Positions 448-18,217 of a DNA stretch of 18,217 nt are shown in pieces. The notes under the pieces were generated by a model. The model was given only the letters and a program-made list of their open reading frames with translations. It was not told where the DNA came from and did not search any database. The stretch is from a virus. Numbering within the stretch: the stretch's first letter is position 1; every line of letters begins with the position of its first letter. A program made the position numbers and the translations under genes. The stretch lies in the UHGV virus genome UHGV-0816550, one strand, 5' to 3'.

Positions 448-3400
448 ATGATCGTTTATAATAGCCAAGCACCTGATGCAGTGAATGATGTTGGGCAGTT
501 TGGTGCTAAGGAAGGCTCTATCGGAGCTTACAAGCAAGCAGCAGAATATGCAGCTGACTCCAAATATTGGGCACTGCTAGCGGAGTCTAAGTTTGGTACA
601 ATTGATGACTTGATCACTGAAGTAGAACGTCTGTATCAACAAGGTGTTTTAATGAAGCAAGATATCGAAGATCTTAAACAGGACTTTAAAGATCAAGATG
701 CTCGTTTGATGACACTTATTGCTCAGACTAACGCAGCAGTGTCGGATGCTAATAATGCCGTTGCTTTAATCAATCAGAAACTTATTGAGGTTCAGAAACA
801 GCTTGATGTTCTGTTGGGAATGTCTGTTGACGTAACTACACTTCCTCCGGGAACTCCGGCTACTGGCTCTTTTAATCCGAACACTGGTGTAATCTCTTTA
901 GGTATTCCAGAAGGTGATCCCGGAAAGGATGGTTCTGTTAAAGATTTGGATACAGCACCTACTGGTGTTCCAGAGCTAGGTGATTTAGGTTTCTATGTTG
1001 ACAAAGATGACAATACTGTCCACAAGACTACTCTAGAGAATATTGCTAACTTAATTCCATCTGTTCGTTCTGTGTCTGTTAACGGTGGAACACCTGCTGA
1101 TGGAGAAGTTAATCTGGTCCTAGACAAAACTACTGTAGGTCTTAATAACGTAGTTAACGTAGCCTCTTATAGTATCTCTCAAGTTGACGGTAAAGTGGAT
1201 GGGTATGTTAAAACCTACAGAACCAAAGCTGCTGCGGATGCTGATGTAGTTAACCGAAAGGTTGGCGAAAACATCCTAGTTTGGGAGGATTATAAATACG
1301 TCTTCTACACTGTAGCTGCCGATAAAACACTAACTCTTTCTAAAACAGAAAATAGGATTGTTACGGTAAACTCTCGAGTTCCGGATTCTACTGGTAATAT
1401 TGATATTACGATACCTACCGGTAACCCGTCTTTGTATTTGGGTGAGATGTTAATGTTCCCTTATGACCCAGCCAAACAGGTGTCATATCCGGGTGTTCTT
1501 CCAGCTGATGGTCGTCTGGTGTCTAAAGATAACGCTGCTGATTTAGGCCCATCTCTTGTCAGTGGTCAACTTCCTGTTGTTTCTGAAACTGCGTGGCAAG
1601 CTGGAGCTAAACAGTATTTCTCTTGGGGCAAGTTAGCTGATGGGGTTACTGATGCGGATTCAACAAACTTTATCAATATTCGACTTCCCGATTGGACAGG
1701 TGGTGAGGCAATTAGATCTCCAAGTAAAACAAGTGACACTCAGTATGATGGAAGACCTCTTTCTCAGGTTCCTTATGTTGTTGCTGTTAACGGTAAGATC
1801 CCTAATGAAGCAACAGGTAATGTTACAGTCACAGCATCAGATGTAGGTGCCCTTCCTACTACTGGTGGTAAGATGACAGGCCATCTAAATCTCAGCTCTG
1901 GGATTGTGTTAACAGGTACCGCGAGTTCTGGAACATCCATTAATATCGCAACTGTTGCAACTGATGGTTCCGTTCTTCTCGGTAGTGATACAGTTAAAGC
2001 TAAAGTCCTATCTTCTGATGTCCCTGTTTATGCAAGCGCTTCGGGAGAGAAGAAGTTTTACACTGAGGCTAACAAACCAACTCCTGCTGAAATAGGGGCT
2101 GCTGCTATCACCTCTGCTGGGGTTAACGGGGATATCACTAAGCTTGAAGGTTTGGTTGGCCCTACTCGACTGGGTGGAGATGCTGTAGGTGATCTAGATG
2201 CTGTTACCTTACGTCAGTTAAGAAACCAAGGGGGTGGCGGTGGTGGGGCTAGCTTGAACGGTGTCTCTAATTTCAATATTGGTGATTTCCGTTTAGTAGA
2301 CAGTCGTGCTCTTATTCACTCTAATGACGTAACTTCTGACGGTCAATTATTATCTCGTACGGCATACCCAGATCTGTGGGCTTATGCTCAAGCGTTGTCT
2401 CCTATCACAGATGCTGCTTGGCTGGCTGACCCCCAACAAAGAGGTAAATACTCTTTAGGTGATGGTTCTACTACATTCCGTGTCCCTGACCGAAATGGTG
2501 TCCAAAGCGGCTCTATCACAGGGTTGTTTGGTAGGGGTGACTCTGGTAATTCTTCTAACAGTGGTTCAGTTTCTGATGCTTCTCTGCCAAACATCACAGC
2601 TAGCTTCTCTTCAGACTTAAACGGAAAAGCTTGGTTTCCTTTCACTACAGCTGACGGGTCTATGCTTGTCTCAACATCCGGTAGTGGAACTTTTATGCCA
2701 ACTGCTGGATATGAAACTGGGACCCAAGGAAATATACTTAGGTTCGATGCATCTAGACAATCCTCAGTTTATGGTCGATATAGTAACACCCAGAACGTAA
2801 TACCTAAAAGTTTTACTGGCGTTTGGGTAATCAGGGCTACTGGTGGATTCACTGCTGCTAATACAGAGTGGTCTGTTATTAACTCCGATGCAACCAAACC
2901 TTCTACTGGGTTTACAGTGTCTGGTGGTTTAGTCCGCTCTGAGTATAAAATAGGGACCGACCTAACTTACTCAGCAACCTTGTCTGCTTATGGGCAAATT
3001 GATGGAGCCTCCGGAACATCTGGAGCTAAAATCTTAAACGGGTCTCAGGAGTGGAAATTCAACAATGCTGGAACATTAGTTCTTCCTAATGCGGTATCTC
3101 AGCTTGGTACAGAAAGACCTGATGGAGCTATCAATGTTGATGCATACCTAAGACCTAAAGATTTGGTAGCCAACTCACTGAACTCTGTCGGTGTTGCGGC
3201 TTACGAGCGAAACGGTATGAGGATGATTAACTTCAATCAAACCACTCCTGGATATGTTTCTTACTTCTCTGGGGATTGGTATGATGGCAGTTACACTCTT
3301 GGTGGCGTTCGTGGTACTGGTACAGACCTGATTCATGCTCAGATTGCGGTAAACAACGGTCAAGGTGTAGCAGCTGATTTTAAGTTCATGCCGGACGGAA

Positions 3401-3762
3401 CTGCTCAAGCAGGGAACTGGTCAAGCACTTCAGACGAAAGACTTAAAACTAACATCAAGCGTATTGAGAATCCTATTGAAAAACTTAAGGCTATCAAAGG
3501 TGTTACTTGGGAACGTCTTGATAAACTTCCTAAACCTAATGGTATTGGCTTCCTTGCGCAAGATGTGGAGAAGGTTTTCCCTGACGCTGTTAAGGCTCTC
3601 CAGTATTCAGACACTGAATTGAAAGATGGAACTATTGTGAAAGATGTTAAGTCTGTAGACACCTATGGGGTAGCTGCTGCACTGCATCACGAAGTCCTAT
3701 TAGTTTTGTTAGATAGAATAGAAGCTCTTGAGAAAGAAGTAAATGAATTAAGGGCACGGTAA
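448..3762 (+). CDS. Tail fibre / tailspike protein 1 (1104 aa) with tail-collar module and C-terminal intramolecular chaperone domain
   Basis: ATG 448 preceded by AAGGAG (437-442). Predicted coiled-coil N-terminus; poly-Gly hinge (QGGGGGGAS); collar-like motif AYPDLWAYAQAL...GDGSTTFRVPDRNG at about 2362-2500; C-terminal S-DERLKTNIKRIENPIEKLKAIKGVTWERLD...LHHEV typical of peptidase S74 self-cleaving chaperone domains. Confidence 0.9.
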   Translation: MIVYNSQAPDAVNDVGQFGAKEGSIGAYKQAAEYAADSKYWALLAESKFGTIDDLITEVERLYQQGVLMKQDIEDLKQDFKDQDARLMTLIAQTNAAVSDANNAVALINQKLIEVQKQLDVLLGMSVDVTTLPPGTPATGSFNPNTGVISLGIPEGDPGKDGSVKDLDTAPTGVPELGDLGFYVDKDDNTVHKTTLENIANLIPSVRSVSVNGGTPADGEVNLVLDKTTVGLNNVVNVASYSISQVDGKVDGYVKTYRTKAAADADVVNRKVGENILVWEDYKYVFYTVAADKTLTLSKTENRIVTVNSRVPDSTGNIDITIPTGNPSLYLGEMLMFPYDPAKQVSYPGVLPADGRLVSKDNAADLGPSLVSGQLPVVSETAWQAGAKQYFSWGKLADGVTDADSTNFINIRLPDWTGGEAIRSPSKTSDTQYDGRPLSQVPYVVAVNGKIPNEATGNVTVTASDVGALPTTGGKMTGHLNLSSGIVLTGTASSGTSINIATVATDGSVLLGSDTVKAKVLSSDVPVYASASGEKKFYTEANKPTPAEIGAAAITSAGVNGDITKLEGLVGPTRLGGDAVGDLDAVTLRQLRNQGGGGGGASLNGVSNFNIGDFRLVDSRALIHSNDVTSDGQLLSRTAYPDLWAYAQALSPITDAAWLADPQQRGKYSLGDGSTTFRVPDRNGVQSGSITGLFGRGDSGNSSNSGSVSDASLPNITASFSSDLNGKAWFPFTTADGSMLVSTSGSGTFMPTAGYETGTQGNILRFDASRQSSVYGRYSNTQNVIPKSFTGVWVIRATGGFTAANTEWSVINSDATKPSTGFTVSGGLVRSEYKIGTDLTYSATLSAYGQIDGASGTSGAKILNGSQEWKFNNAGTLVLPNAVSQLGTERPDGAINVDAYLRPKDLVANSLNSVGVAAYERNGMRMINFNQTTPGYVSYFSGDWYDGSYTLGGVRGTGTDLIHAQIAVNNGQGVAADFKFMPDGTAQAGNWSSTSDERLKTNIKRIENPIEKLKAIKGVTWERLDKLPKPNGIGFLAQDVEKVFPDAVKALQYSDTELKDGTIVKDVKSVDTYGVAAALHHEVLLVLLDRIEALEKEVNELRAR
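3430..3759 (+). other. Intramolecular chaperone (peptidase S74-like) domain of fibre 1, with predicted autocleavage near the Ser-Asp at 3430-3435
   Basis: Motif SDERLKTNI...GVTWERL...GIGFLAQDVEKVFPDAV...LHHEVLLVLLDRIEALEKEVNELR matches the conserved endosialidase/tailspike C-terminal chaperone signature ending in a coiled coil. Confidence 0.7.
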
Positions 3763-3772
3763 TATAAATAAT

Positions 3773-3791
3773 GCTCCCTTCGGGGAGCTTT
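3773..3791 (+). terminator. Stem-loop GCTCCC-TTCG-GGGAGC followed by TTT; candidate terminator or RNA processing/stability hairpin
   Basis: Perfect 6-bp GC-rich inverted repeat with a UUCG tetraloop 11 nt after the fibre 1 stop; only a short U-tract; the AAGGAG site of the next gene follows at 3792. Confidence 0.5.
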
Positions 3792-3803: not shown

Positions 3804-5900
3804 ATGTCTAGAGATTTAATGCCCAAATCTGGCATACTTCAACCATATGTTGTTGTTTCCAGAGATGCAGCTGTTGTTGGCGTTTCCACTGTAGATGGTG
3901 TTGCTGGAGCTGTAAATTTAACTGATAAATACTTGCAGAAAACAGAAGCGGCTGATGTATATCAAACTAAAACAGAAGGTGCATCTAAAGATTATGTATT
4001 AGATTCAATTAAACCTATCATGGAAGGTGCTTTGTTCAAAGCAGACCCTTTTGTAGATAATAACATCCCTTTCCGTTCTGCTGGGGCTAATGGTGTAGAG
4101 TCTGTGGATATGATGAAAGTCACCACTGATAACTCAATTAAGATTGGTAGTTATGCTTCCTCAGTTCAAGGTGTAGAAATTCACTCTGCTGGTCGTCTTC
4201 AGGTTGTTGACCAGAATGACTCTGGGGTAGAAACTAAGTACCCTGTTTATTCTAAACGATACCGCCCTGAGATTGAAGATTTACCTTTCGCTGCAATCGG
4301 AACTTATGTTAAAGATTCAAAAGGTCGTACTGTTGGTGTTACCCGTACAGGTATTAACTCTGATATCAAACAGCTTACACAGAAGGTTACTTTCACTCAG
4401 CCAGTAACTGTTGCCGATGCAGTTGGTGACTATGATGCTGTCACACTAAGACAACTCCGTAATAGTAGTGGTGGTTCTGGTGGTCCTACAATGAGCGGTA
4501 TTTCTAACTTTGGTATTGGTGATTTCAGACTAGTAGACAGCCGTGCTTTTATCCAATCAAATGATGTTACCTCAGATGGTCAGCTGTTAAATCGTGCTGA
4601 TTACCCAGAGCTTTGGGCTTACGCACAACTATTGACCCCAATTAGTGATGCAGATTGGCTGGCTGACCCCCAACAAAGAGGTAAATACTCTTTAGGTGAT
4701 GGTTCTACTACTTTCCGCGTTCCTGATAGAAATGGCGTTCAAACCGGTTCTATCTCTGGTCTGTATGCTCGCGGTGACGGTGGTAACAGCTCCAACGACG
4801 GTACTGTTCAGCAGAACGCCGCGCCTGATATTACAGGCTCCGTTGGTGCGAACATATGGAGCGTATATGGAGATCCTACGGGGGCGATGTTTGCGGCTGA
4901 TCCAGCACTTAATATTCCGTTAGGCGCAGGAACCACACCAGCGCTTTCCGTCGGCTTTCGAGCGGGCCTATCAAACGCCGCTTATGGTCGCGACAACACG
5001 ACCGAAGTCCGCACCAACAGCTTCATAGGTGTCTGGGTTATTCGTGCTAATGGTGGCTTTACTGCTGCTAATACTTCTTGGTCTGTTATTAATGGCGACA
5101 GCGTTGCTCCGGGTACTGGAACAAAGATAGTAGGTGGTGAGATTCGTTCTGACTATAATATTGGAGACTCTATGCACATAAGATCCTCTATGCGTGCTGA
5201 TGGTAACTACGGTCAACGTGGAGGTGGTGTATGGAGAATTGAGGACTATCAAGGTAAAAGTGCAGAGATATCTTTCAACCTTGGTGGTGAGTTAGTGGTC
5301 CCAACATACACCAGAGGCGTGGGGTCGGGTTTCATTGCATCTTCTAAATTAGGGTCTGATGGTCAGTGGCCTACAACATCCCCGGCGTTTATTTGTGAGC
5401 TAACAGGCAGAGTGGGTAATCCCGGAACACCGGGTGCTGTTTTCTCCATGTCTATGGCGGAGAACGTGGGTGTTGATAGCTTTGGCATACTTAGATTCTC
5501 AGGAGCAGGGGTGAATGTGGACTGGCTGTTTAACCAGTTTGGTAGTGCCATAGCTCCTGCTAACTGGGTGAGTAATTCGGATATCCGAATTAAAAAGGAT
5601 ATTGCTAAGATAGAAGAACCTCTTGAGAAGATGAAGAAACTACATGGGTACACTTGGCGACGCTTAGACGGGGGCCAGTTTGGTATTGGGTTCATTGCTC
5701 AAGAAGTTCAGGATATCTATCCAGAGTTGGTCTATACAGGCCCAGACAGAACCCTCCCTGATGGAACAGTTGTCAAAGGTGTCCTATCTCCAGATTCTAC
5801 TGGTATTGCGATTGGTCTTCACCACGAAGCTATTCTGGCTTTGATGGAACAAATCGACACCCTTAAAGCAGAGATTGCTGAACTCAAATCTAACAAATGA
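3804..5900 (+). CDS. Tail fibre / tailspike protein 2 (698 aa), paralogue of fibre 1 with collar module and C-terminal intramolecular chaperone domain
   Basis: ATG 3804 with AAGGAG at 3792-3797. Collar-like motif ADYPELWAYAQLL...GDGSTTFRVPDRNG at about 4596-4737, roughly 80% aa-identical to fibre 1 over this module; C-terminal SDIRIKKDIAKIEEPLEKMKKLHGYTWRRLD...LHHEAILALMEQIDTLKAEIAELK. Confidence 0.9.
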   Translation: MSRDLMPKSGILQPYVVVSRDAAVVGVSTVDGVAGAVNLTDKYLQKTEAADVYQTKTEGASKDYVLDSIKPIMEGALFKADPFVDNNIPFRSAGANGVESVDMMKVTTDNSIKIGSYASSVQGVEIHSAGRLQVVDQNDSGVETKYPVYSKRYRPEIEDLPFAAIGTYVKDSKGRTVGVTRTGINSDIKQLTQKVTFTQPVTVADAVGDYDAVTLRQLRNSSGGSGGPTMSGISNFGIGDFRLVDSRAFIQSNDVTSDGQLLNRADYPELWAYAQLLTPISDADWLADPQQRGKYSLGDGSTTFRVPDRNGVQTGSISGLYARGDGGNSSNDGTVQQNAAPDITGSVGANIWSVYGDPTGAMFAADPALNIPLGAGTTPALSVGFRAGLSNAAYGRDNTTEVRTNSFIGVWVIRANGGFTAANTSWSVINGDSVAPGTGTKIVGGEIRSDYNIGDSMHIRSSMRADGNYGQRGGGVWRIEDYQGKSAEISFNLGGELVVPTYTRGVGSGFIASSKLGSDGQWPTTSPAFICELTGRVGNPGTPGAVFSMSMAENVGVDSFGILRFSGAGVNVDWLFNQFGSAIAPANWVSNSDIRIKKDIAKIEEPLEKMKKLHGYTWRRLDGGQFGIGFIAQEVQDIYPELVYTGPDRTLPDGTVVKGVLSPDSTGIAIGLHHEAILALMEQIDTLKAEIAELKSNK
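5577..5897 (+). other. Intramolecular chaperone (peptidase S74-like) domain of fibre 2
   Basis: NSDIRIKKDI...HGYTWRRL...GIGFIAQEVQDIYPELV...GLHHEAIL plus terminal coiled coil; homologous to the fibre 1 C-terminus but divergent (I estimate about 40% identity by eye). Confidence 0.7.
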
Positions 5901-5903
5901 GAT

Positions 5904-5922
5904 AAGCCCCTTCGGGGGCTTT
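5904..5922 (+). terminator. Stem-loop AAGCCCC-TTCG-GGGGCTT; candidate terminator or processing hairpin after fibre 2
   Basis: Perfect 7-bp stem with UUCG tetraloop 4 nt after the TGA stop; same architecture as the hairpin at 3773-3791; weak U-tract. Confidence 0.45.
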
Positions 5923-7557: not shown

Positions 7558-10500
7558 ATGGCGCTGTATCCAATAAAGTCACTAGGTGCTGTAGGCGTTA
7601 TCGCTGATCAGGCTCCGACAGACTTAGCTCCTAATGCTTTCACTAATGCTATAAATGCTCGATTTGTTGAGCAGAGAGTATTTAAGACGGGGGGCAATGC
7701 CCCTCTTTCTTATGTAGATGAAGATAAGGATTTAACCCCTCTGTCTTTCGTTTCTATGCCTTTCGATTATTATAGCGCAGGTAATAGCTTTCTTGTTGTA
7801 GGTACTAATAAGAAGTTATATAAACTGACAGATGAAAGCTTGACTGATATTAGCCGTAAGGTTGCTACAGTCACTAAGAAGGCTTCTGCCTCAATTAAGA
7901 TTTATCCAGTTGTTTCTCAGATCGTTCCTAAAGAATCAACTATCTCAATGAACTTCAATCAGACCAAGAATCTAGAGGTTTCTCTTCTCCCTGCTGATGC
8001 TAACAATACCGATCTTATTTGGGAGGTTAGTAACTCATCCTATGGAAGTATTACGGTAGACCCTAGTGACTCTAAACTTGCTACTCTAACATCTTTTGAG
8101 AAAGAGGGTAATCTTGTAGTAACTATCTCTACTGCCAATGAATCCGTAGTGGCTCAGATTGCTGTTAATATTATCGATGGCGATTCAGGCATCTTCTTGA
8201 GTCAAGACACTGTTACAATTCGTAAAGGAGGGACTACTACTCTCACGGCTGTTACTGGCAAGACTCCTGTAACTTGGTCCAGCAATAACGCTTCTATTGT
8301 ATCTGTAACCCCTAATGCCAACTCTTTAACTGCTGTCATTACAGCGAATGGAGAAGGTAATGTAACAATCACTGCTGATAACGGGACTAAGACTGCTTCT
8401 TGTGAGATTGTTTCTATCCCTCAGATTGATAGTATCTCTTTAAGCCAGTCAGATGTTACTGTGAGTAGAGGTTCTCAGTATATTTTAACTGCCACCCTTT
8501 CTCCTGCTAACGCCCCTAATCAAAACATTACTTGGACCTCTTCTAACCCAAATATTGCAACAGTATCAGGGACTAGCACACAAGGGACGATCAACGCTCT
8601 GCTTGCTGGTTTTACTGAGATTACAGCTACCACTGAAGAAGGTAACAGAGTTGCTGTCTGTACTGTACGTGTGGATTTAGCTGGAAGGACAATGAGAACA
8701 AGTGCTATGGCATTTGCCGCTCCTGTGTCAGAGTCAGTAGAAACTCAAGAGGAAGAAGTAGTAACTCCTCCTGAAAGTGAAGAGACGGTTTATTTTGCTG
8801 AGCCTACATCCGGTATTGATACGTCAGGGATGTATGAAGGTAACAACTTCTACGACTACTCTAACGTGAATGACATTGAAGGTTTTGCAAGAGCTTCTTT
8901 ACTGGCAACCCCTTTGTCGTCTGTAACCTTAGATATTGTCAGCGCCTCCCTTGATGTTGGTGAAGAGATTGTCATTACAGCCACAGCTTCTCCAGAAGGT
9001 GAGTACTCTTATCAGTGGTCTGTTGATAAAACTGGTTATGTTTCTACAACTTCAGTTACTGGTAAATCTATCAAACTGGTTGCTCTTCGTAAAGGAGAGA
9101 TTAACGTAACATGTACTGTCAGCCAGATGACTCAGAAAGATTATGATGCTTTTGATGACTACCCTTGGTATCACGCTGTTATCTCTAACTGTGCAGTTGC
9201 TACAACTCACTATGAAACTCCTCAGGTAAAAGAATTCGAATCAGAATACTTTGTAGACCTCCCGGGGTGGGGTGAGCAAACAGTTGTTGATAATGATGGA
9301 AACCCTTCAGTCAAGAAGTTTAACTGGAAATGTGAGAGAGTGAGATCTTTTAACAACCGTCTTTTTGCTCTGAATATGAGAGAGGCTAATGCTTCTGGTG
9401 TTACCACTAACTATCCGCTTCGTCTTCGTTGGTCTAACTTTGCCAATGAGAACAAGGCTCCTACACTGTGGGATGACTTTGCCTATGATCGAGTTGTGTC
9501 TTCGGACTTAGCTTCTAACATCGTAGGGCAGACTCAGGCTCTAGAGAATGGGTATGCTGGTTACATCGACTTAGCAGATTCTAATGGTAGCTTGATTGAT
9601 ATCCTACCTCTTAAAGACTACTTGTTTGTTTATACAGAGTTTGAAACGTATATTGGTTCTCCGACTAATAACACATACCAACCTCTGATGTTCAAGAAGC
9701 TCTTTAACGACTCTGGTATCCTTGCTCCCGAGTGTGTGGTTGAAGTAGAAGGCAGTCACTTCGTAGTTACTCAGAACGATGTAATCTTACACAATGGCGC
9801 AACCAAGAAGTCAATTGCATCTAACCGTGTCAAGAACATGCTGATTAACGAGGTGTGTCTGGTTAATCCTCTAGCAACTCGAGTACACTTGCATCAGGAT
9901 AAGAAAGAAGTTTGGGTTCTGTATGTAGGTCCGGGAGAACCAAAAGAAAGCTTCGCTTGCACCAAAGCTGCTGTATGGAATTATGAGTTTGATACCTGGT
10001 CTTTCCGTACTATCCCATATGCTCAGTGTATTGGTCTGGTTGATCCTCCTGTTTTAGAAAGAGGTCCAATCTGGTCTGACTTCCAAGAAATCACTTGGGA
10101 TGATCCGTCTATTAAAGAACTCGTTTGGAGAAAGGATGCAACAAACTTTAGACAGAGGGTTACGATAGTAGGTTCGTTCTTGAGGGGATTCTATCAGGTG
10201 GATGTAGGTGCTCTTGATTATTTCTATGACAGGCTAAACGATGTTGTTATAGAGAAGCCTCTGGAAATGAGGTTGGAGAGGACTGGTATAGATTTTGATA
10301 ATGTGACGAATGAGTGGAATCAGAAGCATATTAATAGATTCCGACCTCAGACAACTGGCTCAGGTACTTACATATTTGAAGCTGGTGGCAGTCAATTCTC
10401 AAATGAATATGGACACCCACATACATCTAAGACTTATACAATCGGTGTTGACAGGCATGTCTCGGTGAGACTGAACCATCCATACCTTTTCTATAATGTT

Positions 10501-15482: not shown

Positions 15483-16274
15483 ATGCAACAGACAACTTAC
15501 GCTCAGGTCAGAAGTCGTGACCCGAGAAATACTTTCTATGGTGTTAATCCGGGAGCGGCTTCGGCCTCTCCTTATATGGCTAGACCAACTCAGACAGCAG
15601 ATATTTCTATGTATCAACGTCCTGCTATACCTGCTGGGCTTTCCTCTCTTGTAGGTCAAACTTCAGTAGATTATCAGAATATGTTGAATCCTGTTCAGAG
15701 TAATGGTCTTCCTTCTGATATCCCAAATGATGTACAACCTCAAGCACAACAGGCTGTAACTCTTCCTGAGTTTGAGAATCAAGAAACCATGCAAGCTGCT
15801 GGACTTTCTCCTTCTTCTATTCCTCCAGAATCAGAACCTCTTCCGGTAACACCTCCTACTAAACCGTTAGAAGCTGGTCCTATGGAGTTTACTCCTTCTC
15901 AGGTGGAACAGGCACAAGGTGTGATTAATACTCTTGCTCAAGGACAAGACGCTGGTGATGGAATGACTGCTGCTACTCGTGCTAAAGATCAGGAACGTGT
16001 TAACAACGATATCTTGCAAGTTGCTAAAGCTAAAAATCCTTCAGAAGCTTGGAATAAACTACAGAAAGAACCTTTCTATCAGAACTCCAGTTTCTATACA
16101 GGTTTAATGGGTGTAGGTCTTTCTATCATGTCAGGTAAGTCTCCTATTGAAGCTTTCCAGATTGGTCAGGGAATGGCTAATCAAGATGAGACTAAGAAGC
16201 AACTGGAAGCTAACCGTGATGCTCTGATTGAACAAGGCTTCTCCCAAGACTCGATCGCAGCTGCTATTGCTTAA
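15483..16274 (+). CDS. Hypothetical virion/ejection-associated protein (263 aa) with Pro-rich linker and C-terminal hydrophobic segment
   Basis: ATG 15483 with AGGAG at 15473-15477. Pro/Ser-rich linker (SPSSIPPESEPLPVTPPTKPLEAGP) and hydrophobic FYTGLMGVGLSIMSG near the C-terminus; no family motif recognised. Confidence 0.65.
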   Translation: MQQTTYAQVRSRDPRNTFYGVNPGAASASPYMARPTQTADISMYQRPAIPAGLSSLVGQTSVDYQNMLNPVQSNGLPSDIPNDVQPQAQQAVTLPEFENQETMQAAGLSPSSIPPESEPLPVTPPTKPLEAGPMEFTPSQVEQAQGVINTLAQGQDAGDGMTAATRAKDQERVNNDILQVAKAKNPSEAWNKLQKEPFYQNSSFYTGLMGVGLSIMSGKSPIEAFQIGQGMANQDETKKQLEANRDALIEQGFSQDSIAAAIA

Positions 16275-17967
16275 CACGTTGAGAGCGAGCACGCTGAGAA
16301 GAGAAGCGATTCAGAGCATACTTAGCAGCACCGAGAGTGTTCATTACCAGACTAGGTGAAGAAGCCTCACGGAATCCATCATCAGTCAGGGAAGTCCAAC
16401 CACGATCTTGGTTACTCATAAACTTAGCCGTATTGTTCAGAGTGTAAGCATCTTGGATAGGATTAAAACCTTCAGGCATGCCTTTCAGTTTCTTCAACCC
16501 ACCGATAGCTTTCTTCATCTCTGGAGAAACGTTATCAGCCATCTTCTGTAGTTCAGCAGCTTTCTCTACGAAGTTGTTAAAGTCTTCACCATCACGAGCT
16601 TTGAATCGATTTGCTTCGTTATAGAAAGTCTTGTACGCATCAATGAAATCACGGTCAGCTTGTGTGCGATTCTTAATATCAATCGGACTGCCAGTAAAGT
16701 CACCAGAAGCTCGGAGAGAAACTAACTCACGATCAAGATTATCCAGAACATCTGTAAGAGCTTTAGTGTTATCCTTGGTGTAGTCAGCCATTGCATCTTT
16801 CATAGCGACAGCTTGCTTCTGGTTGTGCTCATTATCAGCGAAGGCTTTACCACGAGTCTTAGCCGGAGAAGCTAAAGGGTTAAGGCCCGGAATGTTGGAA
16901 TGTTCTTTCTGAACAGAAGCAGCTTTCTCAGCACGAGCTTGGTCAGTATTAAGAATACGCTGAGCAGCAGGAGAATCTACAGCAACAGCATCTGTGATAC
17001 GGAATCCGTTCTCGTCGAGAAGGTTCAGAGCAGAAGCAGCGTTAGCAGTTTCAGCTTTAGAGTAAGCCTCTTTCAGCTCATCAATATTCTTAGCACCACG
17101 AATCAGTTCATCATCAGCAGCAATATCAGTCTTCGCATATTCTGGAGTGTTCTTGAAGACAGCAGAATCCGGACGGCTAATCAAACCATGAACTCCACCA
17201 ACTGCACCACCAAATGCAGCACCCATAGCCCCTTCTTCAATAACCCCTTCCAATGTCTTAGCTAAATCATTGTCATCACCATACTTGTTCTGAACTTCAG
17301 CAGCACCAACAAGAGCACCACCTTTAGCACCAGCCACTGCGTTACTAGCAACGTTCTGACCAATACGACCAAGTGTGGACTCAGCTGTACCAACAGCACC
17401 CGGAAGGATTCTCTGAGCTGCATAGTTAGCACCACCAACTAAGGCTGCATCTAGAACAGACTTATCTTCTCCCTCTTCAGGGGTTTGGTCTGCATACGCA
17501 CGACCGGTCTCACGACCTGCGATGATAGCAGCGGCAGCTAATGGGTTAGCAACTGTCAGACCAATGTCGGCAACCACCCCAGCATACTGACCAGCAGACT
17601 TACCAATCCCATCCTCAATCTTATCCATACGTTCTTTCAAGAGGTTTTGAGCGTTCTCTTGCATACGCTTCCCGTAACCAGTTTGTGCTCCAGTTAGATC
17701 TTCACCAATCTCAACTAAGCCCCCAATACCTCTAGCAAGATTAGCAGAGATGTTAGCACTGCCGGACTGAAGAGCATTTGACACACCTTGAGCAAACTCA
17801 CCTATAGCACCACGTTCTTCTTGTTGTGGTTGTGCTACTGGCTGTTCCTCAGGAATAGAGCCACCTGCTGCCTTATATTGTTCTCTCATTCGAGCTTGTT
17901 GCTCCGGAGAGGCATTCAGATACGCAGGAGCTTTGGAAGCTTCTTCCCACGGTTTAATGTTAGCCAT
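16264..17967 (-). CDS. Hypothetical Gly/Ala-rich protein (567 aa), function unknown
   Basis: Minus-strand ATG at 17965-17967 preceded by AAGGAG; product begins MANIKPWEEAS. The ORF-track start at 18012 has no ribosome-binding site. Stop TAG at 16264-16266 overlaps the 3' end of the + strand gene ending at 16274. Confidence 0.75.
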   Translation of the reverse strand: MANIKPWEEASKAPAYLNASPEQQARMREQYKAAGGSIPEEQPVAQPQQEERGAIGEFAQGVSNALQSGSANISANLARGIGGLVEIGEDLTGAQTGYGKRMQENAQNLLKERMDKIEDGIGKSAGQYAGVVADIGLTVANPLAAAAIIAGRETGRAYADQTPEEGEDKSVLDAALVGGANYAAQRILPGAVGTAESTLGRIGQNVASNAVAGAKGGALVGAAEVQNKYGDDNDLAKTLEGVIEEGAMGAAFGGAVGGVHGLISRPDSAVFKNTPEYAKTDIAADDELIRGAKNIDELKEAYSKAETANAASALNLLDENGFRITDAVAVDSPAAQRILNTDQARAEKAASVQKEHSNIPGLNPLASPAKTRGKAFADNEHNQKQAVAMKDAMADYTKDNTKALTDVLDNLDRELVSLRASGDFTGSPIDIKNRTQADRDFIDAYKTFYNEANRFKARDGEDFNNFVEKAAELQKMADNVSPEMKKAIGGLKKLKGMPEGFNPIQDAYTLNNTAKFMSNQDRGWTSLTDDGFREASSPSLVMNTLGAAKYALNRFSSQRARSQRVKQ

Positions 17968-18035
17968 AACGTCTCCTTTTATAAATAAAAATGTCCTACC
18001 CCCTATATACATTATAGAAGGCAGGACTTAGGTCT

Positions 18036-18217
18036 TATTGAGTGAACCAGCTCGTATCTTCAACAGCTGATAGAGCACCATTAAGCTTAGGATTGGTTGC
18101 TGCACCACCAACCGCTTCTTCTGCTTGTTCAGAGAAAACACCTAGAGGGTCATAGAAACCACCAGAAGGGATTGCACGGTTAACCAATGCAGTAGCCCTC
18201 TTCTTGTCCATACCAGA
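18036..18217 (-). CDS. Small minus-strand ORF, possibly the C-terminus of a gene that starts beyond the window end
   Basis: Frame open from the window edge to TAA (complement of 18036-18038); internal ATG at 18209-18211 would give a 57-aa product MDKKRATALVNRAIPSGGFYDPLGVF...; codon usage like neighbours. Start not determinable. Confidence 0.35.

What the first reader, a model, noticed from the sequence alone, without database searches (positions are those of the whole stretch)
2418..2474. 57-nt tract identical between the two fibre genes
Positions 2418-2474 in fibre 1 and 4655-4711 in fibre 2 are identical (TTGGCTGGCTGACCCCCAACAAAGAGGTAAATACTCTTTAGGTGATGGTTCTACTAC), while flanking DNA shows many synonymous and non-synonymous differences. 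Identity at synonymous sites is not expected from protein constraint alone, so recent gene conversion or a recombination hotspot is likely; recombination here would create chimeric or deleted fibres.
Basis: seen in the sequence. Interest (0 to 1): 0.5.

Follow-up and report, generated by a model that had tools for sequence, protein, structure and literature searches.

The report
Recombination patch shared by two fibre genes
Two neighbouring tail-fibre genes of a phiEco32-like E. coli phage share a perfect 57-base stretch that is a footprint of recombination at the edge of a swappable receptor-binding segment, which is real but an ordinary kind of event for phage fibre genes.

Summary
Window 2418-2474 and 4655-4711 are identical, in the same codon phase, inside two paralogous long-tail-fibre genes (f1 448-3762, f2 3804-5900) of a Kuravirus-like podophage.

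Chance, protein constraint and codon bias do not explain it. Outside the tract only 44% of same-amino-acid codons are identical; inside, 17 of 18 are. No permutation out of 20,000 reached 57 nt.

The tract is not a conserved nucleotide element:
- It is absent from every collection searched.
- In 22 related modules it is no more conserved than its flanks.
- It has no RNA-structure, promoter or terminator signal.

The f1 ortholog in phage pEC-N1203-2Af.1 encodes the same peptide but with six synonymous differences.

The tract lies within the roughly 100-nt zone where the variable part of the receptor-binding module begins. A metagenomic relative carries 407 nt of this window's f2 segment, 99.5% identical, inside its f1 gene, and the 5' junction falls at tract position 21.

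Best reading: a short ectopic homologous-recombination (gene-conversion) patch between the two modules. The direction is unresolved.

It is a new instance of well-known tail-fibre mosaicism. The repeat could also yield an in-frame 1071-aa f1-f2 fusion; this was not tested.

The parts
448..3762 (+). Fibre gene f1 (1104 aa), at the position of phiEco32 gp14 / SU10 proximal long-tail-fibre protein. Here it is extended by its own C-terminal receptor-binding module and Peptidase_S74 intramolecular chaperone.
   Evidence: ORF. Synteny with phiEco32. Pfam Peptidase_S74 1.6e-14 and a sub-threshold Collar hit. About 97% identical to pEC-N1203-2Af.1 f1 outside the variable segment.
3804..5900 (+). Fibre gene f2 (698 aa), at the position of phiEco32 gp15 / SU10 distal long-tail-fibre protein, with a receptor-binding module and S74 chaperone.
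   Evidence: N-terminal ~300 nt (3808-4107) 97-100% identical to pEC-N1203-2Af.1 f2. Homologous to DT57C LtfA residues 559-1015 (PDB 8HQZ chain d, E = 5.5e-94).
2418..2474 (+). Copy 1 of the 57-nt identical tract (in f1). Sub-part S1, 2418-2441, is shared with the f1 ortholog of pEC-N1203-2Af.1. Sub-part S2, 2442-2474, is shared with f2 and with the L068 f1 gene but differs at six synonymous sites from the pEC-N1203-2Af.1 ortholog.
4655..4711 (+). Copy 2 of the 57-nt identical tract (in f2).
2170..2619 (+). f1 side of the ungapped homologous block (150 codons) that contains the tract. It runs from the DAVTLRQLRN motif through the FRVPDRNG 'collar' motif.
   Evidence: Codon alignment. 65% nt identity outside the tract.
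4407..4856 (+). f2 side of the same homologous block.
4675..5081 (+). f2 segment (407 nt) that is 99.5% identical, with two mismatches, to a segment sitting inside the f1 gene of metagenomic contig CYGL01002189.1 (L068 548-954). Its 5' end is tract position 21. Its 3' end lies in the AANT-x-WSVIN motif.
2806..2882 (+). f1 copy of the 3' conserved arm (GVWVIRA..GGFTAANT.WSVIN), 77% identical to the f2 copy. Identity between this f1 and the pEC-N1203-2Af.1 f1 resumes at 2869.
   Evidence: family D2.
5016..5092 (+). f2 copy of the 3' conserved arm. The identity with L068 ends at 5081/5082, and the f2-like stretch of pEC-N1203-2Af.1 f1 ends at 5078/5079.

Best explanation
The tract is the footprint of ectopic homologous recombination, a short gene-conversion-like patch between the homologous receptor-binding modules of the phage's two long-tail-fibre genes.

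Shown: the two modules are old, diverged paralogs (about 65% nt identity), and a 57-nt stretch of them has been made identical.

Inferred: the first 24 nt (2418-2441), which the f1 lineage already shared with f2, acted as the perfectly matched pairing and crossover site. The next 19-33 nt (2442-2460/2474) were copied from one gene to the other. This erased six synonymous differences and changed no amino acid.

The patch sits in the ~100-nt zone where the conserved part of the module gives way to a variable segment of about 400 nt. Related phages demonstrably exchange that segment, even between the f1 and f2 positions.

The direction is not resolved; f2 to f1 is slightly favoured. The tract has no function of its own. 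As a 57-bp direct repeat 2237 bp apart and in matching codon phase, it is now a substrate for further recombination that would fuse f1 and f2 in frame.
For: - The identity is real and far beyond chance, protein constraint or codon bias.
- The f1 ortholog in pEC-N1203-2Af.1 is about 97% identical to the window's f1 up to 2441. It then differs at 2442, 2451, 2454, 2455, 2457 and 2460, all synonymous, exactly where the window's f1 equals its own f2.
- The f1 gene of metagenomic contig L068 is f1-like upstream and downstream but carries 407 nt that are 99.5% identical to the window's f2 4675-5081. This segment therefore moves between f1 and f2 positions, and the 5' junction lies inside the tract.
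- pEC-N1203-2Af.1 f1 also carries f2-type patches at 2512-2547 and about 2779-2868.
- In the T5-like pair DT57C and DT571/2, ltfA identity ends at the position equivalent to 2432 and resumes in the GVWVIRA...WSVIN island.
- Long identical blocks inside otherwise diverged pairs are common in this module, for example 135 nt in EP335/KBNP1711.
- The tract is not a conserved element. The full 57-mer is absent from IMG/VR, a 35-nt core of it is absent from GTDB representative genomes, and BLAST found not even a shared 28-mer in the phage collection or in E. coli genomes. It is no more conserved than its flanks in 22 other modules.
- Literature: the receptor-binding domains of these fibres are described as frequently transferred horizontally (PMC11990801). 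Recombination within the divergent part of ltfA switches DT57C/DT571/2 host range at about 1e-4 (PMC4728585).
Against: - Direct f1<->f2 transfer within this genome cannot be distinguished from each gene recombining with a third, unsampled fibre gene.
- Only one close f1 ortholog (pEC-N1203-2Af.1) and one close relative of the f2 segment (L068) exist in the collections, so the ancestral state and direction are uncertain. pEC-N1203-2Af.1, rather than the window, could be the lineage that changed.
- No other genome with the module in both fibres shows a comparable shared run (26 nt or less), so this is a single event, not a demonstrated recurrent process.
- A single-breakpoint (max-chi-square) scan places the major breakpoints of diverged pairs over about 2320-2518, not tightly on the tract.
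- The same window has an apparent inversion that truncates two conserved genes, so assembly quality cannot be taken for granted.
Confidence: 0.75

Rival explanations
1. Both fibre genes acquired the same short stretch independently from a third fibre gene, in a co-infecting phage or a prophage, rather than exchanging it directly with each other.
For: The module is a patchwork shared across Kuravirus, Suseptimavirus and T5-like phages. L068 and the window share a 99.5% identical 407-nt segment although the rest of L068 is only about 78% identical, so inter-phage transfer is frequent. The window's f1 positions 2476-2505 are identical to LAMP/Bas93 f2.
Against: No third sequence carrying the 57-mer, or even a shared 28-mer or its 35-nt core, was found in 50,697 phage records, IMG/VR, 5,426 E. 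coli genomes or GTDB species representatives. This reading needs two events with the same endpoints instead of one.
Confidence: 0.12
2. The identity is an assembly or consensus-polishing artefact, in which reads from one paralog were used to correct the other.
For: The window ends with an apparent inversion of about 2.6 kb relative to about 99 relatives. It truncates two conserved genes, which hints at imperfect assembly.
Against: The flanks are only about 65-70% identical, so read mis-mapping across a 57-nt island is unlikely. Comparable mosaic patches occur in independently assembled genomes (pEC-N1203-2Af.1, L068, DT57C/DT571/2). The patch is synonymous and in phase, as expected of a real recombinant.
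Confidence: 0.05
3. The tract is kept identical by selection on the nucleotide sequence itself, as an RNA structure, a regulatory or recombinase site, or a translational signal present in both genes.
For: It contains a small hairpin (AAAGAG-N7-CTCTTT) and an AAGAGG motif (read directly from the sequence).
Against: Folding is no better than shuffled controls (z = 0.27, 0.83 and -0.61). There is no Rfam match and no promoter or terminator in the tract. The hairpin is destroyed in the pEC-N1203-2Af.1 ortholog. Across 22 related modules the tract codons are less conserved than the flanks. No invertase or reverse transcriptase is encoded in the window, and no Chi site lies nearby.
Confidence: 0.02
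4. The identity is chance plus shared peptide and codon preference.
For: The encoded peptide is identical in f1, f2 and pEC-N1203-2Af.1 f1, and several codons (GGT, GAT, TCT, ACT) are the preferred ones.
Against: P is about 6e-8 from codon usage. None of 20,000 permutations reached 57 nt. Rare codons (CCC at 6% and CTG at 13% of their synonymous families) are also shared.
Confidence: 0.005

Closest known systems
Recombination between conserved motifs that swaps adhesin segments in T-even distal tail-fibre genes (Tetart et al., J Mol Biol 1998, recalled from my own knowledge; one search shows the title is cited in 30 library papers)
   Same: Variable receptor-recognition segments are flanked by short conserved motifs. 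Natural chimeras have junctions in those motifs. The outcome is mosaic fibre genes.
   Different: This is a different phage family (a podovirus of Gordonclarkvirinae) and a different domain. Here the two recombining copies lie in two fibre genes of one genome, and the visible event is a 57-nt silent patch, not a host-range-changing swap.
Branched LtfA/LtfB lateral fibres of T5-like phages DT57C and DT571/2 (PMC4728585), and the 'T-shaped' dual-receptor-binding-domain fibres of Gordonclarkvirinae, Wifcevirus and Tequintavirus (PMC11990801)
   Same: Direct homologs: window f2 against DT57C LtfA gives E = 5.5e-94, with 71-77% aa identity in the module. The papers report that phiEco32 gp14/gp15 form one fibre, that host range can be switched by recombination in the divergent ltfA region, and that the receptor-binding domains move horizontally. 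The start of divergence between DT57C and DT571/2 ltfA maps to the tract's homologous position.
   Different: Those papers do not describe exchange between the two fibre genes of one genome or a shared identical tract. In DT57C the longest LtfA-LtfB shared run is 26 nt.
Interlocus gene conversion between diverged paralogs (general phenomenon)
   Same: A run of perfect identity that includes synonymous sites sits inside diverged paralogs, conflicts with the ortholog, and is flanked by short pre-existing identity.
   Different: In a lytic phage the partner may equally be a co-infecting genome. Donor, recipient and timing cannot be assigned from the data available.

Membership tests
Gene-conversion / ectopic recombination tract between paralogs | A run of identity significantly longer than flanking divergence predicts, including synonymous sites | tested here: met
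   57 nt against a permutation maximum of 40-54 nt. 17 of 18 codons identical inside against 44% outside, Fisher p = 6e-5. Codon-usage P of about 6e-8.
Gene-conversion / ectopic recombination tract between paralogs | Phylogenetic incongruence: the paralog matches where the ortholog does not | tested here: met
   Six sites at 2442-2460 where window f1 = window f2 = L068 f1 but pEC-N1203-2Af.1 f1 differs. The flanks show the opposite grouping.
Gene-conversion / ectopic recombination tract between paralogs | Donor and recipient are the two copies in the same genome, with a known direction | tested here: inconclusive
   No external carrier of the tract was found. Only one close ortholog exists per gene, so the direction is unresolved.
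Conserved-motif-mediated segment swapping in tail-fibre adhesins (T-even type) | A variable segment bracketed by conserved motifs | tested here: met
   Window f1 against pEC-N1203-2Af.1 f1 is 97% identical up to 2441, 30-87% over 2442-2868, and 97% again from 2869. DT57C/DT571/2 show the same layout.
Conserved-motif-mediated segment swapping in tail-fibre adhesins (T-even type) | Natural chimeras with junctions inside the motifs | tested here: met
   L068 f1 carries window f2 4675-5081 at 99.5% identity, with junctions at tract position 21 and in AANT-x-WSVIN. However, breakpoints of other pairs spread over about 2320-2518.
Conserved-motif-mediated segment swapping in tail-fibre adhesins (T-even type) | The swapped segment sets host specificity | not testable with these tools
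   Only indirect support from the literature: recombination in the divergent part of ltfA switches host range (PMC4728585), and the Gp12-like domain correlates with host range (PMC11990801).
T-shaped dual-domain tail fibre (Gp12-like RBD1 + T5-like RBD2 + intramolecular chaperone) | C-terminal Peptidase_S74 intramolecular chaperone | tested here: met
   Pfam PF13884, 1.6e-14 in f1 and 2.3e-14 in f2.
T-shaped dual-domain tail fibre (Gp12-like RBD1 + T5-like RBD2 + intramolecular chaperone) | Gp12-like ('collar') receptor-binding fold in the region holding the tract | tested here: inconclusive
T-shaped dual-domain tail fibre (Gp12-like RBD1 + T5-like RBD2 + intramolecular chaperone) | Sequence homology to fibres described as such (Bas87-93, DT57C LtfA/LtfB) | tested here: met
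Diversity-generating retroelement (template and variable repeats) | A reverse transcriptase nearby and adenine-specific mismatches between the repeats | tested here: not met
   No reverse-transcriptase domain in any window ORF. The 137 mismatches involve all bases and fall mainly at third codon positions.
Invertible tail-fibre segments (Gin/Cin/Min type) | Inverted crossover sites plus a serine invertase gene | tested here: not met
   The repeats are direct, not inverted. No recombinase domain was found in the window.
Structured RNA or regulatory DNA element | Conservation or covariation across relatives, or stability above background | tested here: not met
   z-scores of 0.27, 0.83 and -0.61. 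No Rfam hit. No consensus promoter or terminator in the tract. The tract is not conserved in relatives.

The most novel reading that the evidence does not exclude
The identical tract is not a passive footprint but a maintained 'linker'. Under this reading it lets the phage reshuffle receptor-binding segments between the two arms of its branched fibre. It could also let the phage collapse the two genes into one in-frame 1071-aa hybrid by deleting 2237 bp. Either outcome would give a built-in, recombination-driven host-range switch within a single genome.
Probability: 0.07. Interest if true: 0.55.

Novelty: new member of a known kind. Interest (0 to 1): 0.3.

Why it matters
The tract documents, at single-nucleotide resolution, how receptor-binding modules of phage fibres are patched together. 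Exchange happens through short stretches of perfect identity at the border of a variable segment, and it occurs even between the two different fibre genes of one virion.

This has practical value for phage host-range engineering. The W-L-A-D...GDGSTTFRVPD and GVWVIRA...WSVIN motifs are natural splice points for swapping this segment in Kuravirus and T5-like fibres.

It also warns that this phage carries a 57-bp direct repeat that could generate fibre-fusion deletion variants in production stocks.

It does not reveal a new mechanism.

Tried and rejected
- RNA structure: folding of the tract and of both 97-nt contexts is no better than shuffles.
- Rfam scan of the whole window: no match.
- Promoter and terminator scan: nothing in the tract.
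- Chi site as a hotspot cause: the only GCTGGTGG is at 10381.
- Diversity-generating retroelement and invertible-segment readings: rejected.
- External donor search: BLAST with the 57-mer or its 86-nt context found no match (not even a shared 28-mer) in phage records or E. coli genomes, and exact-pattern scans found neither the 57-mer in IMG/VR nor a 35-nt core of it in GTDB representatives.
- Closer f1 orthologs, needed to fix the direction of conversion: the large protein search returned only relatives at 56% identity or less, mostly T5-like. The genome contigs locus search found none. The phage collection holds a single close relative.
- Tight clustering of breakpoints exactly on the tract: a max-chi-square scan over 325 pairs gave only 10 significant breakpoints, spread over about 2320-2518. 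I therefore claim only a junction zone, not a point hotspot.
Full report
**Context.** The window is the structural and lysis region of a phiEco32-like podophage (Kuravirus, Gordonclarkvirinae). About 100 phage records match it by megablast. The best is Escherichia phage pEC-N1203-2Af.1, at 91% identity over 82% of the window, and the gene order is that of phiEco32 gp13-gp25.

The two 'fibre genes' are f1 (448-3762, 1104 aa) and f2 (3804-5900, 698 aa). They sit at the positions of phiEco32 gp14 and gp15. In phage SU10 the corresponding proteins are the proximal and distal subunits of the long tail fibre (PMC9509320). For phiEco32 they are reported to form a branched fibre, like LtfA/LtfB of the T5-like phage DT57C (PMC4728585).

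Both window proteins end in a Peptidase_S74 intramolecular chaperone and have a sub-threshold 'tail collar' match at the FRVPDRNG motif. Window f2 is homologous to DT57C LtfA residues 559-1015 (E = 5.5e-94). Fibres of this type were recently described as 'T-shaped', with a Gp12-like receptor-binding domain, a T5-like one and a chaperone. Both domains are reported to be highly variable and often transferred horizontally (PMC11990801).

In most kuraviruses only f2 carries this module. In this window and a minority of relatives (pEC-N1203-2Af.1, EK010, PAS59, LAMP, SDYTW1-F1-2-2_3, L068, L069), f1 carries one as well.

**The observation.** They are bounded by mismatches on both sides and are the only exact repeat of 20 nt or more in the window. 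Both copies are in the same codon phase and encode WLADPQQRGKYSLGDGSTT, immediately before FRVPDRNG.

The surrounding 150-codon ungapped block is 72% identical in protein and 65% identical in DNA outside the tract. Among codons with the same degenerate amino acid, 39 of 88 are identical outside the tract and 17 of 18 inside (Fisher p = 6e-5). None of 20,000 shuffles of codon columns exceeded 40 nt, and none of 20,000 shuffles of synonymous status exceeded 54 nt. From the window's own codon usage, the chance of identical codons for this peptide is about 6e-8, and rare codons such as CCC and CTG are shared.

**Not a conserved sequence element.**
- The full 57-mer was not found in IMG/VR and a 35-nt core of it was not found in GTDB species representatives. 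BLAST with the 57-mer or its 86-nt context found not even a shared 28-mer in 50,697 phage records or 5,426 E. coli genomes.
- In 22 homologous modules from other phages, the tract codons are less conserved than the flanks. Amino-acid conservation is 0.67 against 0.79, and codon identity among same-residue pairs is 0.42 against 0.47.
- The RNA does not fold better than shuffled controls. There is no Rfam match, no promoter or terminator consensus in the tract, and no Chi site near it.
- The mismatches between the paralogs are not adenine-specific. No reverse transcriptase or invertase is encoded in the window, and the repeats are direct. Retroelement-driven diversification and invertible-segment systems are therefore excluded.

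**Evidence for recombination.** The f1 gene of pEC-N1203-2Af.1 is the only close ortholog available. It is about 97% identical to the window's f1 from about 1100 to 2441 and again from 2869 to the end. Between these points the two differ strongly.

Within the tract, the ortholog shares the first 24 nt. It then differs at 2442, 2451, 2454, 2455, 2457 and 2460. All six differences are synonymous, so it encodes the same peptide. At those six sites the window's f1 equals the window's f2. Directly downstream (2481-2507), the window's f1 groups with its ortholog again and against f2. This is the classic incongruence pattern of a short conversion patch.

**A second line of evidence from a metagenomic contig.** CYGL01002189.1 (L068) is a more distant kuravirus, about 78% identical elsewhere. 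Its f1 gene is f1-like both upstream and downstream. In between it contains 407 nt (L068 548-954) that match the window's f2 4675-5081 with only two mismatches. The 5' junction corresponds to tract position 21 (f1-equivalent 2438). The 3' junction lies in the AANT-x-WSVIN motif. This segment has therefore recently moved between an f2 gene and an f1 gene, with an end inside the tract.

**Other mosaic patches in the module.**
- pEC-N1203-2Af.1 f1 carries two f2-type patches, at 2512-2547 and about 2779-2868. The second ends at 5078/5079 in f2 coordinates, 3 nt from the L068 junction.
- In the T5-like sister phages DT57C and DT571/2, ltfA identity ends at the position equivalent to 2432. It returns for a 74-nt island equivalent to 2830-2903.
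- The 135-nt perfect block shared by EP335 and KBNP1711 f2 ends at the equivalent of 2412.
- A single-breakpoint max-chi-square scan gave only 10 significant breakpoints among 325 pairs. They spread over about 2320-2518.

I therefore describe a junction zone of roughly 100 nt that contains the tract, not a point hotspot.

**No regular homogenisation of f1 and f2.** In 11 other genomes the longest run shared by the two fibre genes is 0-26 nt. These include five genomes that have the module in both genes. The 57-nt identity is therefore a single event in this lineage.

**Most likely mechanism (inferred).** Before the event, the two modules already shared 24 perfect nucleotides (2418-2441) and 14 more (2461-2474). 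Between them lay 19 nt with six synonymous mismatches, the state still seen when pEC-N1203-2Af.1 f1 is compared with the window's f2. That 24-nt block is about the minimum length of perfect identity needed for efficient homologous recombination in E. coli. This figure is recalled from my own knowledge of RecA-dependent recombination and was not tested here.

Pairing of f1 with f2, either within one genome or between co-infecting sister genomes, followed by heteroduplex repair or a short double crossover, would have copied 19-33 nt from one gene to the other.

The f2-to-f1 direction is slightly favoured. The 3' part of the tract is contiguous with f2-type downstream sequence in two genomes (window f2 and L068). 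In addition, the pEC-N1203-2Af.1 codons (TAT TCA CT.) resemble other f1-type modules such as LAMP f1 and SDYTW1 f1. The reverse direction, or exchange through an unsampled third gene, cannot be excluded.

**Consequences.** The patch changed no amino acid, so it is selectively silent. It does leave a 57-bp direct repeat 2237 bp apart in matching codon phase. Recombination between the copies would delete the f1 C-terminus and the f2 N-terminus. The result would be an in-frame 1071-aa hybrid, f1 residues 1-676 joined to f2 residues 304-698. The hybrid would resemble the natural f1/f2 chimera seen in L068. Whether such deletants arise or are viable was not tested.

**Comparison with known systems and novelty.** The phenomenon belongs to the well-known mosaicism of phage fibre genes. 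One precedent is segment swapping at conserved motifs in T-even adhesins (Tetart et al. 1998, recalled from my own knowledge; the title is found in 30 library papers). [quoted passage not shown]

What is specific here is a clean, datable-in-principle conversion patch between the two fibre genes of one genome. There is also direct evidence that the same segment can sit in either gene. I rate it a new member of a known kind, of modest interest.

**Caveats.**
- Only one close ortholog is available per gene.
- L068 is a low-quality metagenomic assembly with frameshifts, though its nucleotide identity to the window is unambiguous.
- The structural placement of the tract rests on a low-confidence monomer model. 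That model predicts a helix followed by a loop, then a strand at TFR, with pLDDT 78-88 locally.
- The window's 3' end shows an apparent inversion relative to all relatives. This leaves a small possibility of assembly problems in this record.

Noticed in passing
window 16267-18217 (junction near 16267-16275): This stretch is inverted relative to phiEco32 and about 99 relatives. Window 15000-16271 matches phiEco32 23855-25132 on the forward strand. Window 16267-18217 then matches phiEco32 27761 down to 25811 on the reverse strand. This implies an inversion of about 2.6 kb that truncates the gp25 homolog (263-aa ORF 15483-16274, against 551 aa) and the gp26 homolog (582-aa ORF 16264-18012 on the minus strand, against 1473 aa). 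It is either a misassembly or a defective genome.
   Followed up: partly
window 3773-3788 and 5904-5921: Palindromic GC-rich hairpins (GCTCCC-GAAG-GGGAGC type) lie a few bases after the stop codon of each fibre gene. They are likely terminators or RNA-stabilising hairpins.
   Followed up: no
window 448-3762 (f1) compared with L001 1447-4089 (phiEco32 gp14): f1 is 1104 aa and carries its own complete receptor-binding module and S74 chaperone, whereas phiEco32 gp14 is 880 aa and has no such module. Only a minority of Gordonclarkvirinae (pEC-N1203-2Af.1, EK010, PAS59, LAMP, SDYTW1, L068, L069) have the module in both fibre genes, which implies two receptor-binding arms per fibre.
   Followed up: partly
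window 3088-3207: A second short divergent patch between the window's f1 and pEC-N1203-2Af.1 f1 (62-85% identity, within flanks of about 97%). It lies in the distal part of the fibre and is probably another exchanged patch.
   Followed up: no
window 2476-2505: The 30 nt immediately after the tract in f1 are identical to the f2 genes of phages LAMP and AidaStucki_Bas93, although those modules are only about 75% identical overall. This is another sign of fine-scale mosaicism.
   Followed up: no
window 2388-2645, minus strand: An 85-aa antisense ORF with a GTG start overlaps tract copy 1. There is no counterpart opposite copy 2, so it is most likely spurious.
   Followed up: no
L067 3754-3909 (DT57C ltfA, residues 346-400): DT57C LtfA contains a second, more divergent copy of the collar-type motif (ADGREV...GDGSTTFRLPD) upstream of the main module, so the motif is duplicated within one fibre protein.
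   Followed up: no
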